Shown here: piece by piece, positions 82 to 25,319 of the stretch
How the letters are laid out: each line of letters opens with the position of its first letter
Numbering within the stretch: position 1 is the first letter of the stretch
IMG/VR virus record: IMGVR_UViG_3300005253_000126
Origin: an uncultured virus (IMG/VR IMGVR_UViG_3300005253_000126)
Taxonomy: Duplodnaviria > Heunggongvirae > Uroviricota > Caudoviricetes
Reading direction: 5' to 3' (one strand)
DNA: 27,883 nt
Program-made: the position numbers and the translations under genes
The notes under the pieces: model-generated
What the model saw: only the letters and a program-made list of their open reading frames with translations
What the model was told of the DNA's origin: nothing
Database searches by the model: none

Positions 82-1053
82 TTAGCCGATGTTGGTGTAC
101 TTGACGACGGCCTCGTCCTCCTCGATCTCGACAGCCACCCTGGCCGTGAGAACGATGATGAACTCCCGCGTGCGGATGTCCTTGTCGACCTCCATCGTCA
201 CCCGACGCTGGATACCCCAGATCAGGTTCAGAGGGTTGGTCAACATGCCGCTCGCGTTCGGGAGCTGCAGTGCCGCGTTGACCGGGACACCGAAGCCGAA
301 GACCGGACCCGTGCCCTGCAACTGCGCATCGCCCAGAGCCGTCTCGCGAGTCGCGAACGTGTCACGATACTCGATGAGCTGGTCCATGGAGACGTAGTGG
401 CGGAGAGCCGCCAGATTGCGCAGGTACTGGTCAGGCATGGTCTTGAGACCGGCCTTGAACAGGTCCTTGCTGACCGTCGCGAATCCGTTGTCCACGAAGT
501 TCACGACACCCGAGAGCTTCAACCACCCGTCCTGGAGAGCCAGGTAGGGGTCGCCGGAGCCGGTATCGCCCAGGAGAGCAAGCTCTTCCAGGTCGATGGC
601 CGCACGCTCGGCGATCAAGGTCATGATCGTGTCCTTGATGCCATCCCGGCTGATACCGCTGCCAGCCGCTGGGCCAGACGCGATGTTGTCGTCGATGGTG
701 CCGCGCTCGATGTTGTCCTCGATCACGTCGTAAGGCAGCCGAACCTCAGCGATCACCTCGCTGGTCGTCAGCGTCACCTGCTCGGTCGTGGGACGAGAAC
801 GCAGACCGGCACCCAGCGCCGTGCCAGACGACGGAGCCGCCGCCATGATACGGGTATTGAAGCCGATCTTGTTGATCTTGCGCACGGGCGCATTCATCCG
901 GACGACGCGTGCATCCCGCAGAATCGTGGGCTGCACATGAACCAGCTTCCGGATAAACTCATCCGTCTGCTCAGGGTTCAGCAATCCGCCTTCTGAGGTC
1001 AGGTCACCTACCGTCCAGTCCGCCTTCTGGATAAGTTTCTTGTTGTCGGTCAT
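82..1053 (-). CDS. Major capsid protein (HK97 fold, PBSX XkdG-like)
   Basis: 323 aa. N-terminal GGLLNPEQTDEFI..., SEVIAEVRLPYDVIEDNIE, AAIDLEELALLGDT, DGWLK and C-terminal NLIWGIQR...E-E-AVV are typical of XkdG-like capsid proteins. GGAGG RBS; follows protease and scaffold. Confidence 0.9.
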   Translation of the reverse strand: MTDNKKLIQKADWTVGDLTSEGGLLNPEQTDEFIRKLVHVQPTILRDARVVRMNAPVRKINKIGFNTRIMAAAPSSGTALGAGLRSRPTTEQVTLTTSEVIAEVRLPYDVIEDNIERGTIDDNIASGPAAGSGISRDGIKDTIMTLIAERAAIDLEELALLGDTGSGDPYLALQDGWLKLSGVVNFVDNGFATVSKDLFKAGLKTMPDQYLRNLAALRHYVSMDQLIEYRDTFATRETALGDAQLQGTGPVFGFGVPVNAALQLPNASGMLTNPLNLIWGIQRRVTMEVDKDIRTREFIIVLTARVAVEIEEDEAVVKYTNIG

Positions 1054-1112: not shown

Positions 1113-2513
1113 CTATTCCTTCAGGTCAGCGGTGAAGTCAGCGTTGAACATCTTCTCCATCTGGGTGTTTCCCCAGAAGCCTTTCTTCACCTGCGCTTCA
1201 TCCTTGCGCGTCCGGTCGGCACGCATCCCATCCAAGTCTTCCGGCTGGGTAATGGTGCCCACCAGGGCCGTGCCCTCCACAGCTTTAGTCGCTGCTTTCG
1301 CGGCTTCCTCCACGCTGTTCAGGCGGTCCTGAGATTTGCCCGAGTCCGTTTCGAGCTTGTCGACCTTCGTCGTCAGGCCAGTGATTGCGTTCGTAACGGC
1401 CTGCATCGTCTCCGTGACCTTAGTCAGAGCCTTGAGCATCTCGCCCGTCTCGGCCCCTTGCTGCCCGGCACCCGTACCTACGGGCGGAGGCGGCTGGTTC
1501 GTTGCGCCAGTCTCCATCGGGACACAGTTCCCGTCGACCAGATGCTGACCGGCCGGGCAATCAGCCCGAGGACTCAGGTTGGCGTTGTTCTCGTCCGGGT
1601 TGCCAGGGCTCTTCGTCGCGCCGATAGCCGCGCCATCGTCGCCAGTCGTCGCCTCGGCCCCTGCACCGGCCCCAATAATACCGTGGCCCTGTTCCTCGGC
1701 CGCGCTCTCGACGCAGTTGCCCTTGTCGTCGCGCTGCGTGCCAGGCGGGCAGCCTTGGAAGTCCGTGCCCTCACCAGCGGCGCGATCATGACTCGTCTCA
1801 TGCTCGGCCTTGGCTTTGCCACATTCGGTGCAGGCACCCTTGTTCATGATCTCGAAGCCGTCCAGGTCCTCCAGCTTGAAAGCCACCATCGGCAGCTTCT
1901 TAGTCAGACTCATGACGAACGACTTGTGAGCATCCAGCGCGCTCTCGATCAAGCCGCCTGCGTCCTGGCGCTTCTCGGAGTTGCGCATGATCCCGGAGAC
2001 CGTGCTCATCAGAGCCTCCATGGACATTGCCAGCCCAGGGAAAAAGCCCTTCGTGCTCACGTTCTCGTCGAAGTCCATGCTGTCGGAAAACGGATCGAAA
2101 AACTTCTTGGCGTTACCCCCCAAGATGATCCCGACATCGTCATTCAGCCTCATCGAGACCATCTGACTCTCGTCGTCCGTCCAGTTTTCCTGCTTGAGAA
2201 TGATGACGTTGTCATCCTCCTCTTTGTCCTCGACCTTCAGACCGAGTTCTTTGACCTTCGCGATCAGCTTGTCGGTGTACTTCTCATCCTTACGGATGAC
2301 AACCGCTGCGATGGTCAGCTCGTCAGTTGCGGGGGTGGCACGCTGGCCGTCCCTTTTGCGAAAGAGCATGGCTCCCAGATCAATTCCCATTGCTTTTTCC
2401 TCCTCAGCCTTTAGGATTTTAATGGGTAGCCTATTGGCTCCCCGCTTTACAAGAGAAATCCACCGGACATCTCCGTCAAACAATTCGGTGACCTTAATCT
2501 TCACTATTGCCAT
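1113..2513 (-). CDS. Putative head scaffolding protein
   Basis: 466 aa between protease and capsid. The N-terminal DVRWISLVKRGANR resembles the ISLV..AN segment associated with XkdF-type prohead proteins. Acidic, low-complexity middle with CxxC..H...H and two CPxG..GNCV motifs; C-terminal coiled coil. Confidence 0.65.
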   Translation of the reverse strand: MAIVKIKVTELFDGDVRWISLVKRGANRLPIKILKAEEEKAMGIDLGAMLFRKRDGQRATPATDELTIAAVVIRKDEKYTDKLIAKVKELGLKVEDKEEDDNVIILKQENWTDDESQMVSMRLNDDVGIILGGNAKKFFDPFSDSMDFDENVSTKGFFPGLAMSMEALMSTVSGIMRNSEKRQDAGGLIESALDAHKSFVMSLTKKLPMVAFKLEDLDGFEIMNKGACTECGKAKAEHETSHDRAAGEGTDFQGCPPGTQRDDKGNCVESAAEEQGHGIIGAGAGAEATTGDDGAAIGATKSPGNPDENNANLSPRADCPAGQHLVDGNCVPMETGATNQPPPPVGTGAGQQGAETGEMLKALTKVTETMQAVTNAITGLTTKVDKLETDSGKSQDRLNSVEEAAKAATKAVEGTALVGTITQPEDLDGMRADRTRKDEAQVKKGFWGNTQMEKMFNADFTADLKE

Positions 2514-3105
2514 TTAAGGCCTCCAAGAATGAGAACCGGTGTGCAGGTTCCCCGTTAGGTCCGTCCTCGGTCAGCGTCGGCCGCACTATCTTGTGCGTAT
2601 GGTTCGCGTCCCCCTTCCCTGCCAGCGCCTCTCCTAATACGTCGCCTTCCTTGCTAAAGGTGACCACGAACTTGTGATCATGAGGCTTCGCCTCATTCGC
2701 CACCTTCGTGATCCCCTCGATCTGATCCGGCAGCTCGATCTCAAGTACAGCGCCCCTGGCATGCACAAACCCCTCAAACGAGAGGCCATTGATCTCGCCA
2801 TCCTTGACAGCCTGCCACTCCACGTCGCCTAGTTGTATCCCTACAACCCACGCCCCGAAGATGAAGTCCGGATCGCCGTCCCTTGCGATGAAGGACTCGA
2901 CGAGATCTGCGCCGACCCTTCGGTTATCGTGCTGGCGATCAATCTGCCGCCCTCTACCCGCTACCAGGAAGCCGTGAGCGATCTTCCTGATCTCCTCGGT
3001 CTTCATGAAGTCCCCCTGGCTATCAGGGAGATCCGGCGCGTAGACTTCCGCGTAGATTATCTGAAGCTCTTCATCGACCTTCTTGATCTTCAAAAAGTGC
3101 TCCAT
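2494..3105 (-). CDS. Prohead serine protease, XkdF-like (Peptidase_S78_2 type)
   Basis: QIIYAEVYAPD.PDSQGDFM..EEI...AH.F, IDRQHD, VESFIA, GAWVVG, W..VK.GEINGLSFEG. His-rich C-terminal tail (HDHKF, HTHKI, HRF). Confidence 0.85.
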   Translation of the reverse strand: MEHFLKIKKVDEELQIIYAEVYAPDLPDSQGDFMKTEEIRKIAHGFLVAGRGRQIDRQHDNRRVGADLVESFIARDGDPDFIFGAWVVGIQLGDVEWQAVKDGEINGLSFEGFVHARGAVLEIELPDQIEGITKVANEAKPHDHKFVVTFSKEGDVLGEALAGKGDANHTHKIVRPTLTEDGPNGEPAHRFSFLEALNGNSED

Positions 3106-3135
3106 GTCAGGTCACCCTAGAACTAATTAGCCTAC

Positions 3136-3155
3136 CTGTCCACACGTGTGGACAG
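3136..3155. promoter_or_regulatory. 20-bp perfect palindrome CTGTCCACACGTGTGGACAG (copy 1 of a recurrent motif)
   Basis: Read directly from the sequence; intergenic, 30 nt upstream of the protease start. Confidence 0.75.
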
Positions 3156-3162
3156 AATTAAA

Positions 3163-3702
3163 TCATCGCCTTCTCTTGGGAACGCATCGCCCAGTGACAG
3201 GTTCCCTCACCTTGCCCGGTGGGCACTTCTCGGGGCCTTGCTGGGGACTAAGTAACCCGCCCTCAGTGGCTAGGTCATCCACAGTCAAATCATTCGGGCC
3301 CTGCTTGGGCTTCCGTACCTGCACACACCTGCCGCCCCTCATCCTCATGCCAGGCGGGCATTGCCGCCTCCCTTGTCCAGGGAGATGGACTGCCTTCAGG
3401 CTCTCCAAGAGCATGTCCCTGACTCTCTCTGTCACGCTCTTCTTGCCTTTATCAGACCGTCCCTGACGCCCCCCCAGGCCCTCGCGCGCGCGCCTGCACG
3501 CGGCTGCACGCGAGACACCGATCAGCCTCCGGTGCTTATCGTTCCGGCACGCCCGTCTCATATCCTCCAGGAAGTTCTCGCAGGCCACCTGCTGGCTTAC
3601 GCCGCGCTCGCGGGCAGCCGCGGCGCTTCTACAGGCCGCTGCAAATAGCAGGAATTGACGACGGCTCGTAGATGGCTTGGCCACCCACGTCCGCTCAAAC
3701 AT
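3163..3702 (-). CDS. Basic Arg/Cys-rich head-module protein with a capsid N-terminus-like peptide (start uncertain)
   Basis: Open frame 3163-3747; ATG at 3702 chosen because the upstream start lies inside the palindrome. C-terminus CPPG..GRCV - LTVDDLATEGGLLSPQQ - CPPG..GRCV. Synonymous divergence from the matching capsid segment supports coding status. Confidence 0.7.
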   Translation of the reverse strand: MFERTWVAKPSTSRRQFLLFAAACRSAAAARERGVSQQVACENFLEDMRRACRNDKHRRLIGVSRAAACRRAREGLGGRQGRSDKGKKSVTERVRDMLLESLKAVHLPGQGRRQCPPGMRMRGGRCVQVRKPKQGPNDLTVDDLATEGGLLSPQQGPEKCPPGKVREPVTGRCVPKRRR

Positions 3703-3742
3703 ATTCTTACAAAGGGAGATTGTCACGCATGCGCTCCGGCCA

Positions 3743-3759
3743 TCCACACGTGTGGACAG
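3743..3759. promoter_or_regulatory. Palindrome copy 2, TCCACACGTGTGGACAG
   Basis: 14-bp palindromic core at 3743-3756; 17-bp identity to 3139-3155. Confidence 0.75.
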
Positions 3760-3793
3760 TAGACTGCATGGTGATACTAACTAGCCCGCGTGT

Positions 3794-4531
3794 CTATATC
3801 GTGGTGCGTTTAGGTTGGGGTAGCCTTTCCTGTGTCCTGGGATCAAAGGACTTAGGGTAGTTGGGGTCGCCTTGCCAATCGTAGGTATACCAGGTGCCCT
3901 CAAGTCGGCTGTCCATACACGCCTGACCGCGAGCGAACCAGACCTGGGTATCATTGAACCCATCACCAGAATAAGCCTCGTCCGTTTGCTCTAGTGCCCT
4001 GACTATCTCCACCTTATCCCCGCCCAAGGCAAGGGACTCAGCCAGCCACTTTCTGACCATACCTATTGGAATCCCCGCGTGCCTGCGCTTCAGTATAGTG
4101 CTGTACGCCGATGACATCGTGGCGCAATACTCGCGCACATCTTCACCCGGGAACGGATCATCGGGCCCCGCGAACACCTCCCTGAATCGCCCGATGAACG
4201 GGATAGGGCTATCAAAGGGGGCCTCTCCGATCACTGGAGCGTCATGCTCACGGCCATATACGTCAACCGCCCACACGGCCACCTGCGCGACCACGCCCAG
4301 AGACACGCACAGCAACATGGTCAGAAAATGCCTGGTCACTGAGCCTCCCTCACGGACCTGATCAAGTCGATCACCGTGTCCCAGTTTCCGGATCGTAGCG
4401 TCAATCTCTTCCTGGGGAATAGCACGCGCCTCTTCAAGGCCACGTTTTGTCACCTCGTCATCCAGTTCCTCGAAGGTGACTAGCCTGTCCTTGAATCTGA
4501 TCTCGTCTTTGCCGTCAGCTCTCATGACCAT
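3794..4531 (-). CDS. Hypothetical protein downstream of MuF-toxin (possibly two products; candidate immunity protein plus exported protein)
   Basis: ATG 4531 with AGAGGTG RBS. In-frame GTG at 4339 with GGGAGG RBS, followed by a signal-peptide-like segment (TRHFLTMLLCVSLGVVAQVAVWA). Confidence 0.6.
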   Translation of the reverse strand: MVMRADGKDEIRFKDRLVTFEELDDEVTKRGLEEARAIPQEEIDATIRKLGHGDRLDQVREGGSVTRHFLTMLLCVSLGVVAQVAVWAVDVYGREHDAPVIGEAPFDSPIPFIGRFREVFAGPDDPFPGEDVREYCATMSSAYSTILKRRHAGIPIGMVRKWLAESLALGGDKVEIVRALEQTDEAYSGDGFNDTQVWFARGQACMDSRLEGTWYTYDWQGDPNYPKSFDPRTQERLPQPKRTTI

Positions 4532-4554
4532 AGAATATGCACCTCTACATTTAG

Positions 4555-4563
4555 AGCATAACA
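4555..4563 (-). promoter_or_regulatory. Possible extended -10 promoter TGTTATGCT
   Basis: TGnTAnnnT match in the short gap between the MuF-toxin stop and the next RBS. Confidence 0.35.
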
Positions 4564-4567
4564 CGGA

Positions 4568-6334
4568 TCAAGGGAACGCCACCCCTTTACCCCCAACAAA
4601 GAGAGGGGATCTCCCTTTGGGGACCTGGTTATCCCAGATCGACCAGCGCCCAAAAAACGACTTCAATGCCTGGAAGTTGGCATCGTTGTCGATGTTATTC
4701 AGGACCACGTCCACCGGCACATATCTGCCACGTTTTCTCGGCCCGCTTGCCAGGAACCGGGTCACAGCCCTCAGAGCGGCGTCCTGCCTAGGCAAGAACA
4801 TATAATGGCCCTCGATGCTATACCCCGACTTCTTGAAGTCCTTCAACAGCCCCTGCACCTTGGCCAGGTCGCGCATCGTGGCATCACTGACCACGTTCAG
4901 TCTCAGGTCCCGCGCGATTCTATGGGCCTCGGCGAATATGAATGAGGACTCCTGATGCACCTGGGCAGCATTCCAGCCCCTGAATTCTGGCAGCCCCGCC
5001 TTGATCTTGTCCGGGTCCAGGACGATGTTGGTCTTCGGATCGAATACCCTGCCCTCCAGGGCCCCCTTACCCGATCCACCACGGCCCCCGAGCATAGTGA
5101 ATCTGGGAGCCACCCCTGCCTCTGGCGTGGCCGCGGCCACCGCGTCGGTCGTGAATATGTCACCAAGAATGCTATCGTGCACAGCCAGCCTTTCCGTAGT
5201 CCATGCCCCGTCCACCTTGTGAACGGTATCGGTAGCCCGCAGCCTCCTCAGGTTAATGTCATTCTCGATCACCTCTCTCCTGACGGATGGTGACAGATCA
5301 TCCAGGATCGCGCCCGCCGTGATATTCGGATCGTCGAATTGCTTGGCATACTGATCCAGAGGCAGAGCTGAACGCCCAGGCCTGACACGAGGAGCCACAC
5401 CCGGCTCCAAGGCCCCCGGGGCCCCTACGGTCGGGCCCTTCCTGCTCTTCCTCAATACCCCTCGACAGAATGGGTGATATGGCGGCGTGTCCCAGCCAGC
5501 TCCCGAGAGCTGCTCGGTGTTCATCGCCTTGAGGTTCCGTATCCCGGCCCTGCTCTGGCTGGGCCATGTGGCGATAGTCTTCATGTCGTTCGGGTTGTCC
5601 ACAGACAGCCAGCGATTCAGCTTATCCGCGGCCCCGGCGACTGAGAATACCTTGCCGTTCATCTCCCGACAAACGGGGCAAGTCCGGATGTCTAACTGCT
5701 CCGACACCCGGTAGAATTGGACGTTTCGCGCCGTAGCCTCCTGAGTGAATCCCCAGCTCCCTAACCTGGAGGCATGCAGGCTGCTCGCTAGCAAGATATT
5801 CTGGCCGCCAGCGCCAATGGCCCTCTGCCCTAGATCCACGGCGAACGAACCCACCAGCTTCTGCATAGGGACCCGGCCTTCCTTCTCGTCCAGCTTCTGC
5901 TGTAGGAATATCCGAGCCTCTCTCCTAACCACCTCATTCGTGTCTATCAGCGTCATCTGGAAGATCTCGACCGCCCTGTCAACCACCTCCGGCACCTGTT
6001 CCTTCGCGAATCGGGTGTTCCTGGCCCGCGCGAAGTCGGTAGCCCCAAAGATCACAGCCATCTCCCCCGTGAACCGGGCCCTGCGCTCTTGCCTGCGAGC
6101 CACAGGCCCCAGGTCCAGCTCCTCGACGGCCGCGAATGCCCCGTTGATGTCCCCGGCCTGAAACCGGTCAGCAATCTTCTGGACCACAGAGGAAGCCTCT
6201 CGCTTCCAGGAGTTGAATGTGGGGATGGCCAGGGAGTCCTCGATGGCCAGAAAGGCCTCGCGGCGTACTGTCGTGGCCTGGGGGGCTCTGGACTCCGTTG
6301 TCGCTCTAGTCGGGGCAGCCGCTATATCAACCAT
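4568..6334 (-). CDS. Head morphogenesis protein (MuF/SPP1 gp7 family) with C-terminal zeta-toxin-like P-loop kinase domain
   Basis: MuF motifs LDIRTCPVCREMNGKVF and PPYHPFCRG. C-terminal GGRGGSGKG Walker A (5063-5089), LDPDKIK..LPEF, VHQESS, NVVSDAT, RA..RF....RGRYVP and W..WDN as in zeta-toxin domains. Immediately downstream of the portal; start placed at the ATG overlapping the portal stop (frame open to 6412). Confidence 0.85.
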   Translation of the reverse strand: MVDIAAAPTRATTESRAPQATTVRREAFLAIEDSLAIPTFNSWKREASSVVQKIADRFQAGDINGAFAAVEELDLGPVARRQERRARFTGEMAVIFGATDFARARNTRFAKEQVPEVVDRAVEIFQMTLIDTNEVVRREARIFLQQKLDEKEGRVPMQKLVGSFAVDLGQRAIGAGGQNILLASSLHASRLGSWGFTQEATARNVQFYRVSEQLDIRTCPVCREMNGKVFSVAGAADKLNRWLSVDNPNDMKTIATWPSQSRAGIRNLKAMNTEQLSGAGWDTPPYHPFCRGVLRKSRKGPTVGAPGALEPGVAPRVRPGRSALPLDQYAKQFDDPNITAGAILDDLSPSVRREVIENDINLRRLRATDTVHKVDGAWTTERLAVHDSILGDIFTTDAVAAATPEAGVAPRFTMLGGRGGSGKGALEGRVFDPKTNIVLDPDKIKAGLPEFRGWNAAQVHQESSFIFAEAHRIARDLRLNVVSDATMRDLAKVQGLLKDFKKSGYSIEGHYMFLPRQDAALRAVTRFLASGPRKRGRYVPVDVVLNNIDNDANFQALKSFFGRWSIWDNQVPKGRSPLFVGGKGVAFP

Positions 6335-8279
6335 CGCCGTGGTCATGATCCTGGTGGATGGCCAAGGCTGCAATCTCACTGAGTTGATCGGCCCCCGCGG
6401 GATCGTGGCCATACCCAGCCATCATATTGATAGCCGCCAGGTGATGGAACATCGCCTTGTATTGCTCCGGCAGGTTCTTCACGATCCTGACCATGGTCTT
6501 CCTGGCGTCTGGGCTCGGCTCTTTTTCGCCGACGGTCATCACCGCCCACTCCTGAGCCAGGTGGATCACCTCCTCCATGCCCATCTTCATAGCCCGCTGC
6601 AGGGATTCGCCCCCCTCCCCATTAGGAACCCCCTCGGGAATACCCCCTGGGGGCATCGGTGGGGCAGGCGGCTTGATCATCTCAACCTCTTCAGGGACCT
6701 CAAAGGTCAAATCGACGATCTCGTTCAGGGTCTCCACCACATCCTTGTTAGTTATGGCCCCGGCCTTGATCGCAAGCTCAACGCCCTTGATCTGGCTGTC
6801 CACGTCGCGCAGGGTGATGGCCAGGGAGTGAAATATAAAATCTGGGGCGATCTCCCTCATGATCGTCTTGTTCATCACCTCGTCGAACTCCTCGCGCTCG
6901 GGCTTGAACACCTGGGCCTCTGCGATCATGTACGAGGTCTTGGCCGTCGCGAAGTTCATGTCCTCACTTTTGCCCACGAACAGCGGCGGCAAACGGAAAC
7001 TGGACCGCACGCGTTTCTCGTTGTTCGTGTTGTAGACCTCGAACATGCTGTCCTTCAAGCGCTCAGATCCGAATCTCTCGACTAGCACCTTGACGTTGCC
7101 CGGCTTGTCCATGTCCCCACCGGCCGCGTGTACCTCGATGACCATCGCCCGGTTCTTGCTCGCCCCCTTGCCGCTCAGGTAGGTCTGGATCTGCTGCCTG
7201 ACCACCTCGGTCAGGACACCGCCCTGGATAATGATCATCGCCGGGGGTAGCCCGCCACTGTTGAAAAAGTCCAGATTCAGCTCCTCGGCCTTACGTGAGC
7301 CCAGGATACTGGGGGTCTGATTGATCCACCGCGGCACACCATACGGGGTCCCCGGCATCTTGTTCACCGTGAACATAATCAGCTCGCTGGCCCGGTCGGG
7401 CATCGCGACTGGCTTATCCGCAGTCTCCCAGGCACCGGTCATTTTATTCAGTTCACGGCTGGCCTTATATTCCTTAAAAAAGACCATTCCCTTGCCCCTC
7501 TCGATCTTCGGGGTGCCCGCCACATTCTCCGCCCGCACACTACCGGTGCGCTGCATGTATCTCCTCTCCCTGGTCAGGAGCTTCACATTCATCTCCCGGC
7601 CCCTACGCATGAGCGTGATGTCCTTGACCACAGCCATGTCAAGCCTCACCAGCCTGATGGTCGTCGGGTCAACGTTGTTCACCAACATGATCTCGCCCTT
7701 GGGGTTACGAATCACCTCCAGATACGCAACGCCAGTGACCTCAAGCCCCCGTCTCAACTCGCGCCTCATGGTCATGAACGATGTGTTAGGCCAGGGCTCG
7801 CTGAAAAAATCCTCGGCCACCTGTTGCTTCCTCTTCTGCTCAGCCTCGGCGGCGATCTCCTCGGGGGTGGGGGCCACGGGCACCGGTTCCTCGCCCTCAG
7901 GCGGCTGCTTATCGTCTGCCTCATCCTCGGACGTGCCTAGATCCTTAGGTACAATCTCGTGCCCTGTGCCGTCTATGTTGACCTCCATCGCCGCGATGTT
8001 CTGCATCAGGGCGTTATTATGGGCACACAGATGGACCAGGAGCCTCAGATGAAACGGTGGGTTGATGATCTGCCTGCGGTCGTCCTCGTGCAGGGTCGAG
8101 AACTCGTCATCGGCCGTGAACGCATTGGACTCTAAGACAGCCTGATCCTGCTTGCTCAGTTTCCTGCGCTTAATCAGGGTCACGTCGGTGTTGAGCCCCA
8201 TGGCCTTGAGCGCTTCGGACTGCTCAAGCTCTTCCGGGGTCATGGATGGCTCTTGATTCTTGTCCTTCTTTTTGGGCAC
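6327..8279 (-). CDS. Portal protein, PBSX family
   Basis: 650 aa. LEVTGVAYLEVIRN..GE, YGVPRW, AEELN.DFFNSGGLP, D.MFE.Y....VRSSFRLPPLFVG.SED.NFATA, VF.PER. GTG start with GGAGG RBS. Confidence 0.9.
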   Translation of the reverse strand: MPKKKDKNQEPSMTPEELEQSEALKAMGLNTDVTLIKRRKLSKQDQAVLESNAFTADDEFSTLHEDDRRQIINPPFHLRLLVHLCAHNNALMQNIAAMEVNIDGTGHEIVPKDLGTSEDEADDKQPPEGEEPVPVAPTPEEIAAEAEQKRKQQVAEDFFSEPWPNTSFMTMRRELRRGLEVTGVAYLEVIRNPKGEIMLVNNVDPTTIRLVRLDMAVVKDITLMRRGREMNVKLLTRERRYMQRTGSVRAENVAGTPKIERGKGMVFFKEYKASRELNKMTGAWETADKPVAMPDRASELIMFTVNKMPGTPYGVPRWINQTPSILGSRKAEELNLDFFNSGGLPPAMIIIQGGVLTEVVRQQIQTYLSGKGASKNRAMVIEVHAAGGDMDKPGNVKVLVERFGSERLKDSMFEVYNTNNEKRVRSSFRLPPLFVGKSEDMNFATAKTSYMIAEAQVFKPEREEFDEVMNKTIMREIAPDFIFHSLAITLRDVDSQIKGVELAIKAGAITNKDVVETLNEIVDLTFEVPEEVEMIKPPAPPMPPGGIPEGVPNGEGGESLQRAMKMGMEEVIHLAQEWAVMTVGEKEPSPDARKTMVRIVKNLPEQYKAMFHHLAAINMMAGYGHDPAGADQLSEIAALAIHQDHDHGDG

Positions 8280-9343: not shown

Positions 9344-11746
9344 TTACGCAGCTAATTTCATCACCTTCAGCTCTGCCAGGTTGGGGCCTACCTCCAGGCC
9401 TACCGTGAACTTGAGCCTAGGCTGCCAGTTGAATAGCTTCTTGGTAGGCAGATTCTCCATGACCTCCACGATCCGCGCGGCGTCTCGCTCCACGTGCTCC
9501 TCGGGCACGTAGAACTTCAGGTTGTCGTGGGTGTTATCGCAAGGCACCATCTCATACCTATCGTGCAAGACCACGATGCTGAGCTGGGTCAGGTCTGAGA
9601 GCCCGCCCTGCACCGGGCTGTTGATCGCGCGCCTCTCCTGCTTACTCGATACCCAGAAGTCAACGGCGTTGATTAGCGGCAGGTGCCTGACACGGCCCAG
9701 GGGGTTGCGCACATAGCCGTGGGTCTTGGCATACGCGATCTGGCGATCATGCCACGGTCGCAGTCCTGGGTACATGGCAAAGAACTTCTCGATGGCCTCC
9801 TCAGCCTCTTGCAAGGTGAACACCACGCCGAACACGTCCAGGGCATACCTCACGAAGCCCTTCGCCATCATGCCGTAGATCAATCCAAAATTGAAGCATT
9901 TTGCCTTCTGCCTCAATGACTTACGTTCGTTTTTCGATAACGCTGTGAACTGCTCCATCGTGTTGCCACTGATCATGGCACCAGTATAGCTGTGAAGGTC
10001 AGCCTCTCGCCCTCCCTCCAGGTAGAACCTCAGCATGGCGGGCTCGTCAGCGATCTCCGCGGTCATCTTCAGCTCACCCTGGTCATAGTCCGCGGACAGA
10101 ATCACATGCCCAGGCGGCGCGATGAACGCTCGCCTCAGCCTCGGGGTCCAGATAGGGTTATGTTTGGGGGTAGTCTGAACAGCCGGATCTCGCGCCGACG
10201 TGCGTCCAGTATTAGTTCCGGCCTCTTCTCCCTCCCACTCTTCCTTCCCCAAAAAATACGTCGGGTGGAATCGACCGTCGGCCCTCAGGTGCTTCAGGAA
10301 CCCGATGATGTAGTTATCATTGATCTTGCCCGCCCTGCGCCAATCCATCAGCCCCATAACCCACGGCAGGTCCTTCTCGAACATCTTCAGGTGATCTTTA
10401 CCCGTGGCCGGTTCGGCCTCCGCCTCCGTGATCTTCCTCTGTTTGAGTAGCTGCTCGCTCTTCGGCGTGAACCGCTTCGGCTTCAGCCCCATGAAGCGCT
10501 TGTTGAACATAAAGTCCTTGACTATCGCGGGCCTGGTCAGGGACAGGTCATCCATGTACTTGTACCGCAGCTTCACAGGCAACGCCTTCACGAGCTGTCT
10601 GTGCTTCGCCCGTAGATAGCGCTCTGCCATCACCCCCAGCTTCCGGTAGTAGACCTCGTCGATATACAACCCCTGGCGCTCGATCTTCTCGTATACCCGG
10701 GACACCGGGTGCACCAGTCGCAGGTACAGGTTGGCCAGCGCCGGGTCCAGCTTCAACATAGGCGTCAGTCGACGGTCGATCCGGTACTCCGCGTCACTGT
10801 CGCCGCCTGCATAAGTGATCAGCCTAGGCCTGGGCACCAGGTCCATCTGGCTCTTGTCGAATTCTGCGTTGAACGCGTCATCGTAGCCCCCCATCTCCGT
10901 GAAGATCTTGGCATGGACGTTGACGCTGTTCGCCCGGTTCTCGTCCAGCAGGCTACCGATCAGGATCGTGTCCCGCTTGAAGTTTGTGCACCCCATCCCC
11001 CACTTCTCGGCCATCCAGCCCATATCGAACTTGAAGTTCGCGCCGACGGTCGATACCTTCGGGCTATTCAGCAGCCAGTGGATCTGCTCCCACAGTCCGT
11101 CTGCCCCCGGCTCCATCGGCTCATCAAGGCCCTTCGGGAAGTACCTTACCCAGCTCTCGCCCGGCCTGAACGTGAAGGTGATCGCCACGATCCAGCGCTC
11201 GGGGTTGTATGGGTCCAGGCCCACGGTCTCGGTGTCGCACGCCACGGGGATCGGCCGCTTGTACTTGGTGTTGGCCCTCACAATCAGCTCAATCAGCGTG
11301 CTGAAGTCCTCCACATCCCTGTACCGGGTGCCTTCAGCCCCAGGCACCTCCAGACTGCCTGTCTTCTCCAGGCGCATGGCCAGGGCCACATCCCACTGGA
11401 TCTCCCACAGGCGCGCGTAGCCCGTGGCCTTCTTGTTGGTGGGGTCTTCTTTCCAGATGATACCAGGGTCCCAGGTCAGCATGATCCTGGCCCCGTTGTG
11501 TTCGATGATCTTCCCCCGCATCGAGGTTAGAGATCTGCCCTTGGGGGCCATGCCACGGTCTTGCAAGAACTGCAGGACCTTGCTGCCAAAGCCCAGGATC
11601 ACGGGGTTCGTGCCCTCGGGCACAGGGATATACGCCTGCCCCTCCCGGAACGGCAAGACCTTCGCCGAATGCCCAGCCAGCACCGGCTTCACTACCTTCA
11701 CAAGATTATCGCCAGACGCTCTGGCAGGAACCCATAATCCTAGCAT
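9344..11746 (-). CDS. polA: DNA polymerase, family A, with 3'-5' exonuclease
   Basis: Exo I CDTETVGL, Exo II GANFKFD, Exo III YAGGDSDA; TGRTSARDPAVQ; motif A SADYDQGEL; motif B RQKAKCFNFGLIYG; RRAINSPVQG; motif C THDNL. Confidence 0.93.
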   Translation of the reverse strand: MLGLWVPARASGDNLVKVVKPVLAGHSAKVLPFREGQAYIPVPEGTNPVILGFGSKVLQFLQDRGMAPKGRSLTSMRGKIIEHNGARIMLTWDPGIIWKEDPTNKKATGYARLWEIQWDVALAMRLEKTGSLEVPGAEGTRYRDVEDFSTLIELIVRANTKYKRPIPVACDTETVGLDPYNPERWIVAITFTFRPGESWVRYFPKGLDEPMEPGADGLWEQIHWLLNSPKVSTVGANFKFDMGWMAEKWGMGCTNFKRDTILIGSLLDENRANSVNVHAKIFTEMGGYDDAFNAEFDKSQMDLVPRPRLITYAGGDSDAEYRIDRRLTPMLKLDPALANLYLRLVHPVSRVYEKIERQGLYIDEVYYRKLGVMAERYLRAKHRQLVKALPVKLRYKYMDDLSLTRPAIVKDFMFNKRFMGLKPKRFTPKSEQLLKQRKITEAEAEPATGKDHLKMFEKDLPWVMGLMDWRRAGKINDNYIIGFLKHLRADGRFHPTYFLGKEEWEGEEAGTNTGRTSARDPAVQTTPKHNPIWTPRLRRAFIAPPGHVILSADYDQGELKMTAEIADEPAMLRFYLEGGREADLHSYTGAMISGNTMEQFTALSKNERKSLRQKAKCFNFGLIYGMMAKGFVRYALDVFGVVFTLQEAEEAIEKFFAMYPGLRPWHDRQIAYAKTHGYVRNPLGRVRHLPLINAVDFWVSSKQERRAINSPVQGGLSDLTQLSIVVLHDRYEMVPCDNTHDNLKFYVPEEHVERDAARIVEVMENLPTKKLFNWQPRLKFTVGLEVGPNLAELKVMKLAA

Positions 11747-17534: not shown

Positions 17535-17552
17535 CTGTCCACACGTGTGGAC
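17535..17552. promoter_or_regulatory. Palindrome copy 3, CTGTCCACACGTGTGGAC
   Basis: 16-bp perfect palindrome at 17537-17552; intergenic, about 22 nt upstream of ATG 17514. Confidence 0.75.
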
Positions 17553-25124: not shown

Positions 25125-25138
25125 TCCACACGTGTGGA
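25125..25138. promoter_or_regulatory. Palindrome copy 4, TCCACACGTGTGGA
   Basis: Perfect 14-bp core; a 2-mismatch copy TCTACACGTATGGA lies at 25207-25220. Confidence 0.75.
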
Positions 25139-25319
25139 TGACCCCGTGGAGACCAACTTCCCCAGCCCTCGGTCGAGGGCTCTGATTCTGACCGTCCACG
25201 AGATCATCTACACGTATGGATAAGGTTCCCGGCCAGTAGAGCAGAGGTGATGATCCCGTCGCGCCTCATGTCAAAGCGCTCCACCGCTGGCCGGGGCCCA
25301 GTGGTGACGGGTGACCAAT

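What the first reader, a model, noticed from the sequence alone, without database searches (positions are those of the whole stretch)
3163..3702. Head-module gene carrying a protein-level copy of the capsid N-terminal peptide (possible capsid mimic)
Seen: this small basic ORF contains LTVDDLATEGGLLSPQQ (3238-3288), matching the major capsid N-terminus WTVGDLTSEGGLLNPEQ (967-1017) at 11 of 17 residues. Nine of those 11 identical residues use different synonymous codons (for example GAG GGC GGG TTA CTT versus GAA GGC GGA TTG CTG). The match is therefore held at the amino-acid level and is not a recent DNA duplication. The peptide sits between two CPPG..GRCV motifs that also occur in the scaffold, and the whole gene is bracketed by a 17-bp direct repeat (the palindrome). 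Established: N-terminal arms of HK97-fold capsid proteins take part in scaffold/protease interactions and subunit contacts. Inference: the protein uses a capsid-arm mimic to dock into the procapsid. It could be an internal basic cargo, a size or assembly modulator, a protease decoy, or an inhibitor of competing or satellite capsids. I know of no described protein with this arrangement.
Basis: partly seen in the sequence, partly recalled or inferred. Interest (0 to 1): 0.85.

Follow-up and report, generated by a model that had tools for sequence, protein, structure and literature searches.

The report
Capsid-arm address tag on head proteins
A small, very basic phage head gene carries a conserved protein-level copy of the coat protein's N-terminal arm next to a viral two-cysteine hairpin, and because related phages fuse the same unit to their head protease and a minor head protein, it is most likely an address label for the assembling capsid, though nothing has been tested at the bench.

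Summary
ORF 3163-3702 (minus strand; the true start is probably GTG 3726) is a real gene under purifying selection. It carries a 19-residue copy of the major capsid protein's N-arm. The match is far above chance and uses different codons.

The peptide is nearly invariant in 8 of 8 orthologues, and it keeps the same residues that are conserved across the capsid family.

The flanking CPxG..GxCV motifs resemble the viral 2-cysteine adaptor (Pfam 2C_adapt). In this window they occur only in this gene and in the putative scaffold.

The peptide plus hairpin is a portable unit. Elsewhere it sits at the N-terminus of XkdF head proteases (2 clusters) and of a MuF-like minor head protein. It also occurs in an unrelated small protein at the same genome position in another phage.

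A procapsid address tag is therefore the best reading. A shared protease recognition element is the main rival.

- Co-variation with the phage's own capsid is mixed: 1 of 3 independent cases.
- The "bracketing" palindrome is a repeated intergenic site (4 exact copies), not specific to this gene.
- The complex prediction gave no answer.

The parts
3163..3726 (-). ORF-X: small basic head-module protein. It is 179 aa from ATG 3702 (pI 11.3) and probably starts 8 codons earlier, at GTG 3726.
   Evidence: Eight family members were found. dN/dS is 0.06 against L001.
3472..3678 (-). Helical N-terminal domain (residues 9-77) with four Cys that are invariant in the ORF-X family.
   Evidence: The AF2 model has helices 14-77 at pLDDT 85-94. 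Stand-alone homologues of 49-83 aa exist: P0010, P0089, P0100, P0105, P0114. P0010 and P0100 match phrog_16759 and the N-termini of two 'virion structural protein' PHROGs.
3322..3360 (-). First CPxG..GxCV hairpin (2-cysteine-adaptor-like). It is optional: absent from 3 of the 8 orthologues.
3235..3291 (-). Copy of the capsid N-arm (residues 138-156).
3181..3225 (-). Second CPxG..GxCV hairpin, present in all 8 orthologues, 3-4 residues after the peptide.
964..1020 (-). N-arm segment (residues 12-30) of the major capsid protein, the original of the copied peptide.
   Evidence: The capsid model has the HK97 fold.
82..1053 (-). Major capsid protein (phrog_1623, HK97 fold).
1113..2513 (-). Putative scaffold, assigned by position and composition only. 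It has two CPxG..GNCV hairpins at 1710-1751 and 1521-1559.
2494..3105 (-). XkdF-type head maturation protease, immediately downstream of ORF-X.
   Evidence: PF14550 at E = 2.6e-24; phrog_15223.
3139..3155 (.). Palindromic repeat between ORF-X and the protease gene.
3743..3759 (.). The same palindromic repeat upstream of ORF-X. It is also present upstream of the orthologues in L001 and L004.

Best explanation
ORF-X is a genuine, highly basic protein of the head-assembly module, built from portable pieces.

Its N-terminal half is a small helical domain. That domain also exists as a free mini-protein and as the N-terminus of proteins annotated as virion structural proteins.

Its C-terminal half is an address unit. 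It consists of a copy of residues 12-29 of the coat protein's N-terminal arm, followed after 3-4 residues by a two-cysteine hairpin of the viral 2-cysteine-adaptor type. The putative scaffold of the same phage carries the same kind of hairpin.

Inferred mechanism: during prohead assembly the copied arm makes the contact that the real coat arm makes. In solved phages that partner is the scaffolding protein. The carrier is thereby built into the prohead interior. ORF-X itself would then be an internal, DNA-facing head protein.

Shown here: the anatomy, the conservation, the portability of the unit and the genomic context. Inferred only: binding, packaging and any processing.
For: 1. The match is real, held at protein level and well above chance.

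2. Conservation. Of the 19 peptide positions, 11 are invariant in all 8 ORF-X sequences. Seven capsid positions within residues 12-29 are at least 90% conserved in 42 capsid proteins: D12, D17, L18, G23, L25, E28 and Q29. Six of these seven are among the invariant positions of the copy, using the register.

3. Portability.
- The unit opens two clusters of XkdF proteases, P0009 and P0135. They are 60% identical over the extension, and PF14550 scores E = 2.8e-26 in P0009.
- It opens the MuF-like protein P0042. BLASTP of P0042 against the window's MuF protein gives E = 9e-09.
- In L009 it lies in an otherwise unrelated 185-aa protein at the same position, between the MuF and protease genes.
- In P0009, P0135 and P0042 the peptide starts at about residue 10-14, as it does in the coat protein.

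4. The L009 copy matches its own capsid arm at 14 of 18 residues, with only 4 shared codons.

5. Census of 84 loci of this capsid family, 61 of them with at least 3 kb upstream. A strong second copy (z = 8.2-15.1) occurs only in the window, L001, L002 and L009. All other loci score z of 4.5 or less. All four of those phages also have the hairpin in the scaffold. The hairpin was found in only 5 of the 73 other scaffolds examined (L001, L002, L009, L022, L037), plus the window's own.

6. The other domains of the carriers point to heads.
- The ORF-X N-domain, through P0010 and P0100, matches the N-termini of phrog_25121 and phrog_22033, both 'virion structural protein'.
- The N-domain of the L009 carrier also heads a DUF2213-like head maturation protease in L090.

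7. In the SPP1 procapsid the scaffold binds the coat protein's N-terminal helix (PMC6813328, passages read). The AF2 model of this capsid predicts a helix at 4-19, a turn, then a helix at 27-39, at pLDDT 61-70.

8. Ascovirus P64 is a basic, DNA-condensing virion protein that carries four 2-cysteine adaptor motifs (PMC6163548, passages read).
Against: - No binding, packaging or expression data exist. All relatives come from metagenomes or uncultured viral contigs, and no cultured phage in the 50,697-record collection has the gene.
- In ORF-X the peptide is internal (residues 138-156), not N-terminal.
- Tracking of the own capsid is not general. The peptides of the window, L001 and L002 score higher against an arm from L025 than against their own capsid; the window's own arm ranks 4th of 26 distinct arms. 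Only L009 ranks its own first. That test used only the 39 gap-free arms.
- One scaffold with the hairpin (L037) has 9 kb of upstream sequence and no carrier.
- P0001 itself does not reach Pfam 2C_adapt at E <= 0.1.
- The AF2 model gives the peptide a pLDDT below 50.
- The scaffold is named from its position and composition only (phrog_27672 is 'unknown function').
Confidence: 0.45

Rival explanations
1. Shared protease recognition element. The XkdF protease recognises and trims the coat protein's N-terminus, and the same element marks its other substrates: itself, MuF and ORF-X. In the protease fusions it could also act as a pseudo-substrate propeptide, which in this window would be encoded as a separate gene just upstream. 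This reading can coexist with targeting, as in the T4 targeting sequence (recalled).
For: - The unit sits directly on, or directly upstream of, the protease.
- K10 and A11, just before the arm, are invariant in 42 capsid proteins.
- By my reading, 7 of the 10 carriers compared have a K-x-D at the same place.
- Head proteases commonly cut coat, minor head and internal proteins (recalled; T4 and SPN3US papers seen only as search listings).
Against: - The putative scaffold, a usual substrate, has no copy. The own-arm scans hit only the carriers.
- A conserved stretch of about 19 residues, predicted to be partly helical, is long for a cleavage site.
- The cleavage specificity of XkdF proteases is not known to me. 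A search for XkdF together with scaffold and capsid found 0 papers.
Confidence: 0.25
2. Assembly modulator or competitor. The arm copy competes with coat protein for its partner in order to tune nucleation, capsid size or timing, or to block foreign or satellite capsids.
For: - Mimicry of an assembly interface redirects capsid size in SaPI1 CpmB / 80alpha (PMC5644958, abstract seen).
- The peptide resembles the family consensus more than the phage's own arm, which would suit a broadly acting competitor.
Against: - The same unit sits on the phage's own essential protease and on a MuF protein. This argues for recruitment rather than inhibition.
- No satellite or competing element was seen in the window.
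Confidence: 0.1
3. DNA-binding regulator. The basic helical N-domain binds the palindrome that precedes ORF-X and the protease gene, and the arm copy is a secondary feature.
For: - Palindrome copies lie upstream of ORF-X and of the protease gene, and in two or three other intergenic spots. The copy upstream of ORF-X is kept in L001 and L004.
- ORF-X has pI 11.3.
- Weak Foldseek rows include helix-turn-helix regulators, but at E of 2 or more.
Against: - There is no significant fold or family match to DNA-binding domains. The best VIA Z is 4.0, to generic helical proteins.
- The 12-bp core of the palindrome has no exact match in L002, which keeps the gene.
- Relatives of the N-domain head virion structural proteins.
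- This reading does not explain the conserved arm copy or its fusions.
Confidence: 0.07

Closest known systems
Phage T4 capsid targeting sequence on internal proteins IPI-III and Alt (recalled; T4 head reviews PMC3012670 and PMC9958956 seen only as search listings)
   Same: A short peptide shared by unrelated proteins that sends them into the prohead interior. It acts together with the scaffold core and the head protease.
   Different: The T4 tag is a short N-terminal leader that is cut off, and it is not described as a copy of the coat protein's arm. Here the tag copies the coat arm, is paired with a two-cysteine hairpin, and is internal in ORF-X. Cleavage is unknown.
SaPI1 CpmB mimicry of the 80alpha scaffold C-terminus (PMC5644958, abstract only)
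   Same: Protein-level imitation of one side of the coat-scaffold interface by another protein.
   Different: There a satellite copies the scaffold's tail to change capsid size. Here the phage's own proteins copy the coat side of the presumed interface.
Virus-specific 2-cysteine adaptor domain (Pfam PF08793), e.g. ascovirus P64 (PMC6163548, passages read)
   Same: A CPxG..GxC hairpin of the same pattern. The ORF-X profile retrieves 2C_adapt proteins, including kinase and OTU fusions. P64 is a basic, DNA-binding virion protein.
   Different: The domain is described for eukaryotic large DNA viruses. P0001 does not reach the Pfam model. No coat-arm copy is reported there.
N-arms of the accessory proteins Dec and PVP woven into the coat lattice of phage P74-26 (PMC12407722, passages read)
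   Same: Accessory proteins use an N-terminal arm that joins beta-sheets of the coat protein alongside the coat's own N-arm.
   Different: Those are external cement and portal-vertex proteins. The passages I read report no sequence copy of the coat arm.
Encapsulin cargo-loading peptides and the nested protease/scaffold genes of lambda-like phages (both recalled)
   Same: A shared short element gives several cargo proteins access to the inside of an HK97-fold shell.
   Different: Those elements are C-terminal and do not copy the shell protein itself.

Membership tests
Pfam PF08793 2C_adapt (2-cysteine adaptor domain) | Match to the Pfam model at its gathering score. | tested here: not met
   P0001 has no PF08793 hit at E <= 0.1.
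Pfam PF08793 2C_adapt (2-cysteine adaptor domain) | A roughly 35-residue unit with two conserved Cys in the pattern CPxGK..NP.TGRCV, often repeated and fused to kinases or OTU peptidases. | tested here: inconclusive
   The A1 profile found 117 proteins, mostly through profile positions of about 145-172. Of the 111 scanned, 35 match PF08793 at E <= 0.01, 23 match Pkinase and 3 match OTU. The pattern is shared; homology is not proven.
T4-type capsid targeting sequence | The tag lies at the extreme N-terminus of the cargo. | tested here: not met
   The tag is internal in ORF-X (residues 138-156) and in the L009 carrier (from about residue 56). It is N-terminal in P0009, P0135 and P0042.
T4-type capsid targeting sequence | The tag is removed by the head protease after loading, and loading depends on the scaffold core. 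| not testable with these tools
   This needs prohead or virion proteomics and N-terminal sequencing.
HK97-fold major capsid protein N-arm (the original of the copy) | The copied segment lies in the N-terminal arm of an HK97-fold coat protein. | tested here: met
   The capsid model (pLDDT 78) matches the T5/DT57C, P4-procapsid and HK97 coat proteins at E of about 1e-14 to 1e-12. The copied residues 12-30 precede the first strands, in the helix-turn-helix at 4-39. PF05065 aligns from residue 22, but weakly, at E = 0.027.
phrog_16759 mini-protein / N-terminal domain of phrog_25121 and phrog_22033 'virion structural proteins' | Significant match of the N-terminal domain to these profiles. | tested here: inconclusive
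   P0001 matches phrog_16759 only at E = 0.015. The link runs through P0010, which the A1 profile hits at E = 1.1e-15. P0010 matches phrog_16759 at 1.4e-10 and phrog_25121 at 2.1e-06.

The most novel reading that the evidence does not exclude
The coat-arm copy plus two-cysteine hairpin is a natural, transferable loading tag for HK97-fold phage capsids. It imitates the coat protein's scaffold-binding arm and so brings protease, MuF and small basic cargo into the prohead. If so, the 2-cysteine adaptor, so far without a function, would be a capsid-interior adaptor shared by phages and giant eukaryotic viruses. Earlier unchecked notes of this scan report coat-arm copies on other proteins in other genomes, so self-mimicry of the coat arm could be a general, undescribed addressing principle.
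Probability: 0.3. Interest if true: 0.8.

Novelty: new variant of a known kind. Interest (0 to 1): 0.6.

Why it matters
How head proteases, minor head proteins and internal proteins are counted into proheads is known for only a few model phages. A tag that copies the coat protein's own arm would be a new solution to that problem.

It would also give a bench-testable handle for loading foreign proteins into phage capsids. And it would suggest a first function for the 2-cysteine adaptor motif of large DNA viruses.

The fusions to protease and MuF make the idea directly testable with a three- or four-gene co-expression experiment.

Tried and rejected
Complex prediction. I submitted capsid, scaffold residues 230-466 and ORF-X residues 107-179 together. 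The verdict was 'no answer': score 0.00, controls not run. This is no evidence either way.

Fold of ORF-X.
- Foldseek against the PDB gave no match at E <= 0.001.
- VIA wide gave a best Z of 4.0, to generic helical proteins.
- The ESM Atlas gave no usable hit.

Sequence search of the capsid protein against PDB chains: 0 hits at E <= 1.

Fetching the contigs of the fusion proteins.
- P0009 and P0042 in viral contigs: none found.
- P0135 in viral contigs: 5 loci, all matching only from about residue 81-115 of the query, so none shares the N-terminal extension.
- P0135 and A1 in genome contigs: none.
- As a result, the capsid arms that go with P0005, P0009, P0135 and P0042 are unknown.

Search for longer fused forms, using residues 131-179 of P0001: none among 12 candidates. 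This is weak evidence.

My recollection that the N-domain is 'DUF3008' found no support. Pfam gave no family for P0010, P0100 or P0114, so I dropped it.

The palindrome as a terminator: no terminator-like site in 3000-3900. The single promoter-like match lies across the start of the gene and is probably chance.

Reading the CPxG hits as chitin-binding CBM_14 (90 of 111 proteins): rejected as a partial match to a Cys hairpin.

Technical failures: the first census script timed out and a second one crashed. An interim census found the capsid arm in only 51 of 86 loci and was replaced.

Literature: searches for 'N-arm' + mimic + bacteriophage + major capsid protein (10 papers held the terms, 9 listed), for capsid targeting sequence terms and for N-arm/scaffold/HK97 terms showed no described coat-arm copy used as a tag. 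I read titles and abstracts of the listings, and passages of four papers only.

Full report
**Setting.** All genes at the left end of the window run on the minus strand. In transcription order they are:
- portal, 6327-8279;
- a MuF-like minor head protein fused to a zeta-toxin/AAA_33-type domain, 4568-6412;
- an unassigned 256-aa protein, 3794-4564;
- the gene in question, 3163-3702;
- an XkdF-type protease, 2494-3105 (PF14550, E = 2.6e-24);
- a 466-aa protein in the scaffold position, 1113-2513 (phrog_27672, unknown function);
- the major capsid protein, 82-1053 (phrog_1623, E = 1e-94).

A family-A DNA polymerase lies upstream of the portal, the same order as in Rhodobacter phage RcZahn. The capsid protein has relatives in 226 phage records, all below 60% identity. 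Its AF2 model (pLDDT 78.1) matches HK97-fold coat proteins at E of about 1e-14.

**The observation.**
- They share 11 of 17 residues, and 9 of those 11 use different codons.
- BLASTP extends the match to 13 of 21 residues, E = 1e-05 for the pair.
- I scanned the capsid's own 19-mer over every other open frame of at least 50 aa in the window. It scores 61 at this gene. The maximum over 200 shuffled peptides was 46 (z = 8.2).
- The CPxG..GxC motifs occur twice in the gene and twice in the putative scaffold. The only other six-frame match lies on the plus strand at 10107.
- The 17-bp repeat is real. Its palindromic core occurs four times exactly, plus one degenerate copy, where 0.08 are expected. 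The copies I inspected all lie between genes.

It is therefore a repeated intergenic site and not a bracket of this gene.

**Is it a gene?** Yes.
- Eight proteins form the family, 47-99% identical to the window's.
- Against the 96%-identical copy in L001 there are 34.5 synonymous and 7.5 non-synonymous differences (dN/dS 0.06). Against L002 dN/dS is 0.19, with dS saturated.
- The likely start is GTG 3726, preceded by GGAG.
- The protein has pI 11.3, with 41 Arg+Lys in 179 residues.

**Anatomy.**
- The AF2 model (mean pLDDT 65.8) gives a confident helical N-domain: helices 14-77 at pLDDT 85-94.
- It gives two short beta-hairpins at the CPxG..GxCV motifs and no confident structure for the peptide.
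- In the family alignment the peptide has 11 invariant positions.
- The second hairpin is present in all 8 sequences. The first is missing in 3 of 8.

**What the pieces are.**
- A profile of the family, run against 1.84 billion representatives, found 117 proteins.
- Five are free mini-proteins of 49-83 aa that match only the N-domain.
- Two of these, P0010 and P0100, match phrog_16759 and the first 42-47 positions of two PHROGs annotated 'virion structural protein'.
- Almost all other hits match only the hairpin, often several times.
- Of the 111 scanned, 35 carry Pfam 2C_adapt at E <= 0.01, 23 carry a protein kinase domain and 3 carry OTU. [quoted passage not shown]
- The window's protein itself does not reach the Pfam model.

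I therefore call the hairpin 2-cysteine-adaptor-like, and not a member.

**Portability, the key result.** The peptide followed by the hairpin turns up on other head proteins.
- P0009, and P0135 (60% identical over the extension), are XkdF proteases that begin with the peptide and two hairpins. One of those hairpins, with its HLPGQG lead-in, closely matches the first hairpin of ORF-X.
- P0042 begins with the peptide and one hairpin, and ends in a MuF-type domain. BLASTP against the window's MuF protein gives E = 9e-09. Pfam Phage_Mu_F scores E = 3e-04, below its cut-off.
- In locus L009 a 185-aa protein sits at the same place, between the MuF and protease genes. It has a different N-domain, the peptide, one hairpin and a different C-domain.
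- That N-domain occurs free (about 53 aa) in several viral contigs. It also opens a DUF2213-like head maturation protease in L090.

Four architectures thus share the unit, and each partner domain points to the prohead.

**Census.** I scanned 84 loci of this capsid family, each with its own capsid arm. L003 and L087, copies of the window's contig, were left out. L004 and L008 had no capsid N-terminus.
- A strong second copy occurs only in the window, L001, L002 and L009 (z = 8.2-15.1).
- Two further loci, L079 and L083, barely exceed their shuffles (z = 4.1 and 4.5). The hit is a 113-aa frame downstream of the capsid gene.
- 61 loci had at least 3 kb upstream, and 4 of them were positive.
- L001 is nearly the same phage as the window, so there are three independent cases.
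- All four positives have the hairpin in the scaffold. A regex over 73 other scaffolds found it in 5: L001, L002, L009, L022 and L037.
- L037 has it without a carrier. L022 lacks enough upstream sequence to tell.

**Does the copy track its own capsid?** Only partly.
- Seven capsid positions within residues 12-29 are at least 90% conserved in 42 capsid proteins. Six of them are invariant in the copy.
- When each copy is ranked against 26 distinct capsid arms (from the 39 gap-free ones), the L009 copy prefers its own capsid clearly: score 80 against 66. It shares the unusual DLEA and GGKL.
- The window, L001 and L002 copies score best against a consensus-like arm from L025. The window's own arm ranks fourth.
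- The L009 pair also differs in codons. Of 14 identical residues, 4 share a codon.

The copy is therefore constrained like the capsid arm, but strict co-variation is shown in one of three independent cases.

**Mechanism.**
- In the SPP1 procapsid every coat subunit is held by the scaffold through its N-terminal helix. That helix later unfolds into the N-arm and pairs with arms of neighbouring capsomers (PMC6813328, passages).
- The capsid model here predicts a helix (4-19), a GG turn and a second helix (27-39). The copied stretch covers the end of the first helix, the turn and the cap of the second.
- My best reading is that the copy occupies the coat arm's partner, probably the scaffold, and so carries its protein into the prohead.
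- The co-occurring hairpins in scaffold and carriers may form part of the same interface.
- ORF-X, being very basic, would end up as an internal, DNA-facing protein. This parallels ascovirus P64, a basic DNA-condensing virion protein with four 2-cysteine adaptor motifs (PMC6163548, passages).

None of this is shown. The one complex prediction gave no answer.

**Rivals.**
- The main rival is that the element is what the XkdF protease recognises on its substrates. It could also act as a pseudo-substrate propeptide, encoded separately in this window. K10 and A11 before the arm are invariant in capsids, and most carriers have K-x-D there. Against this, the scaffold has no copy, and the element is long for a cleavage site. 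The two readings can both be true.
- A competitor or size-modulator role has no support, and neither does a regulator that binds the palindrome.

**Comparison with what is known.** My searches turned up no described case of a coat-arm copy used as a tag. I read only listings and passages of four papers. Earlier notes of this scan, which are AI notes I did not test, report coat-arm copies on other proteins in other genomes. This instance may therefore belong to a wider pattern. What it adds is the fusion evidence and the pairing with the two-cysteine hairpin.

**Verdict.** This is a new variant of the known idea of capsid-addressing peptides, with moderate to high interest. The fusions make it directly testable.

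Noticed in passing
window 3139-3152, 3743-3756, 17538-17551, 25125-25138; degenerate copy at 25207-25220: A perfect palindrome with core TCCACACGTGTGGA occurs 4 times exactly, where 0.08 are expected. The copies inspected lie between genes: those at 3139, 3743 and 17538 are a few tens of bases upstream of minus-strand starts. It is also kept upstream of the ORF-X orthologues in L001 and L004. It is a candidate operator or promoter-associated site of this phage.
   Followed up: partly
window 4568-6412 (-): The MuF-like minor head protein carries a C-terminal zeta-toxin / AAA_33-type kinase domain (PF06414, E = 3.8e-19). MuF proteins with toxin-like C-terminal cargo are known from temperate phages (recalled).
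   Followed up: no
window 3794-4564 (-); L002 2347-2844: An unassigned protein lies between the MuF gene and ORF-X, with no Pfam or PHROG family. It has a hydrophobic segment, and its C-terminal WYTY..DP.YPK stretch is shared with the L002 counterpart. A membrane-like protein inside a head module is unusual.
   Followed up: no
L079-L084, 113-aa frame just downstream of the capsid gene (e.g. L080 9950-10288): This frame shows weak resemblance to the phage's own capsid arm (z = 3.3-4.5). It exceeds the shuffles in 2 of the 5 loci that have it. It may be a second, more diverged kind of arm copy, or chance.
   Followed up: no
L009 397-3573: The family-A DNA polymerase is 1058 aa and looks interrupted by an intein-like insert (a Cys after the motif at the start of the insert and an HN at its end). 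A separate 151-aa frame lies inside it (2174-2629).
   Followed up: no
L002 3371-3790: An extra 139-aa gene lies between the ORF-X orthologue and the protease. It matches only the N-terminal part of a long 'head maturation protease' family (phrog_34096, E = 1.7e-08).
   Followed up: no
L089-L102 (e.g. L091 4501-4659; L090 448-2307): A roughly 50-aa basic domain with a WGSQKKYYY core occurs as a free mini-protein in several viral contigs. It also forms the N-terminus of 520-620-aa proteins, one of which is a DUF2213-like head protease. It is another portable head-module piece without a name.
   Followed up: partly
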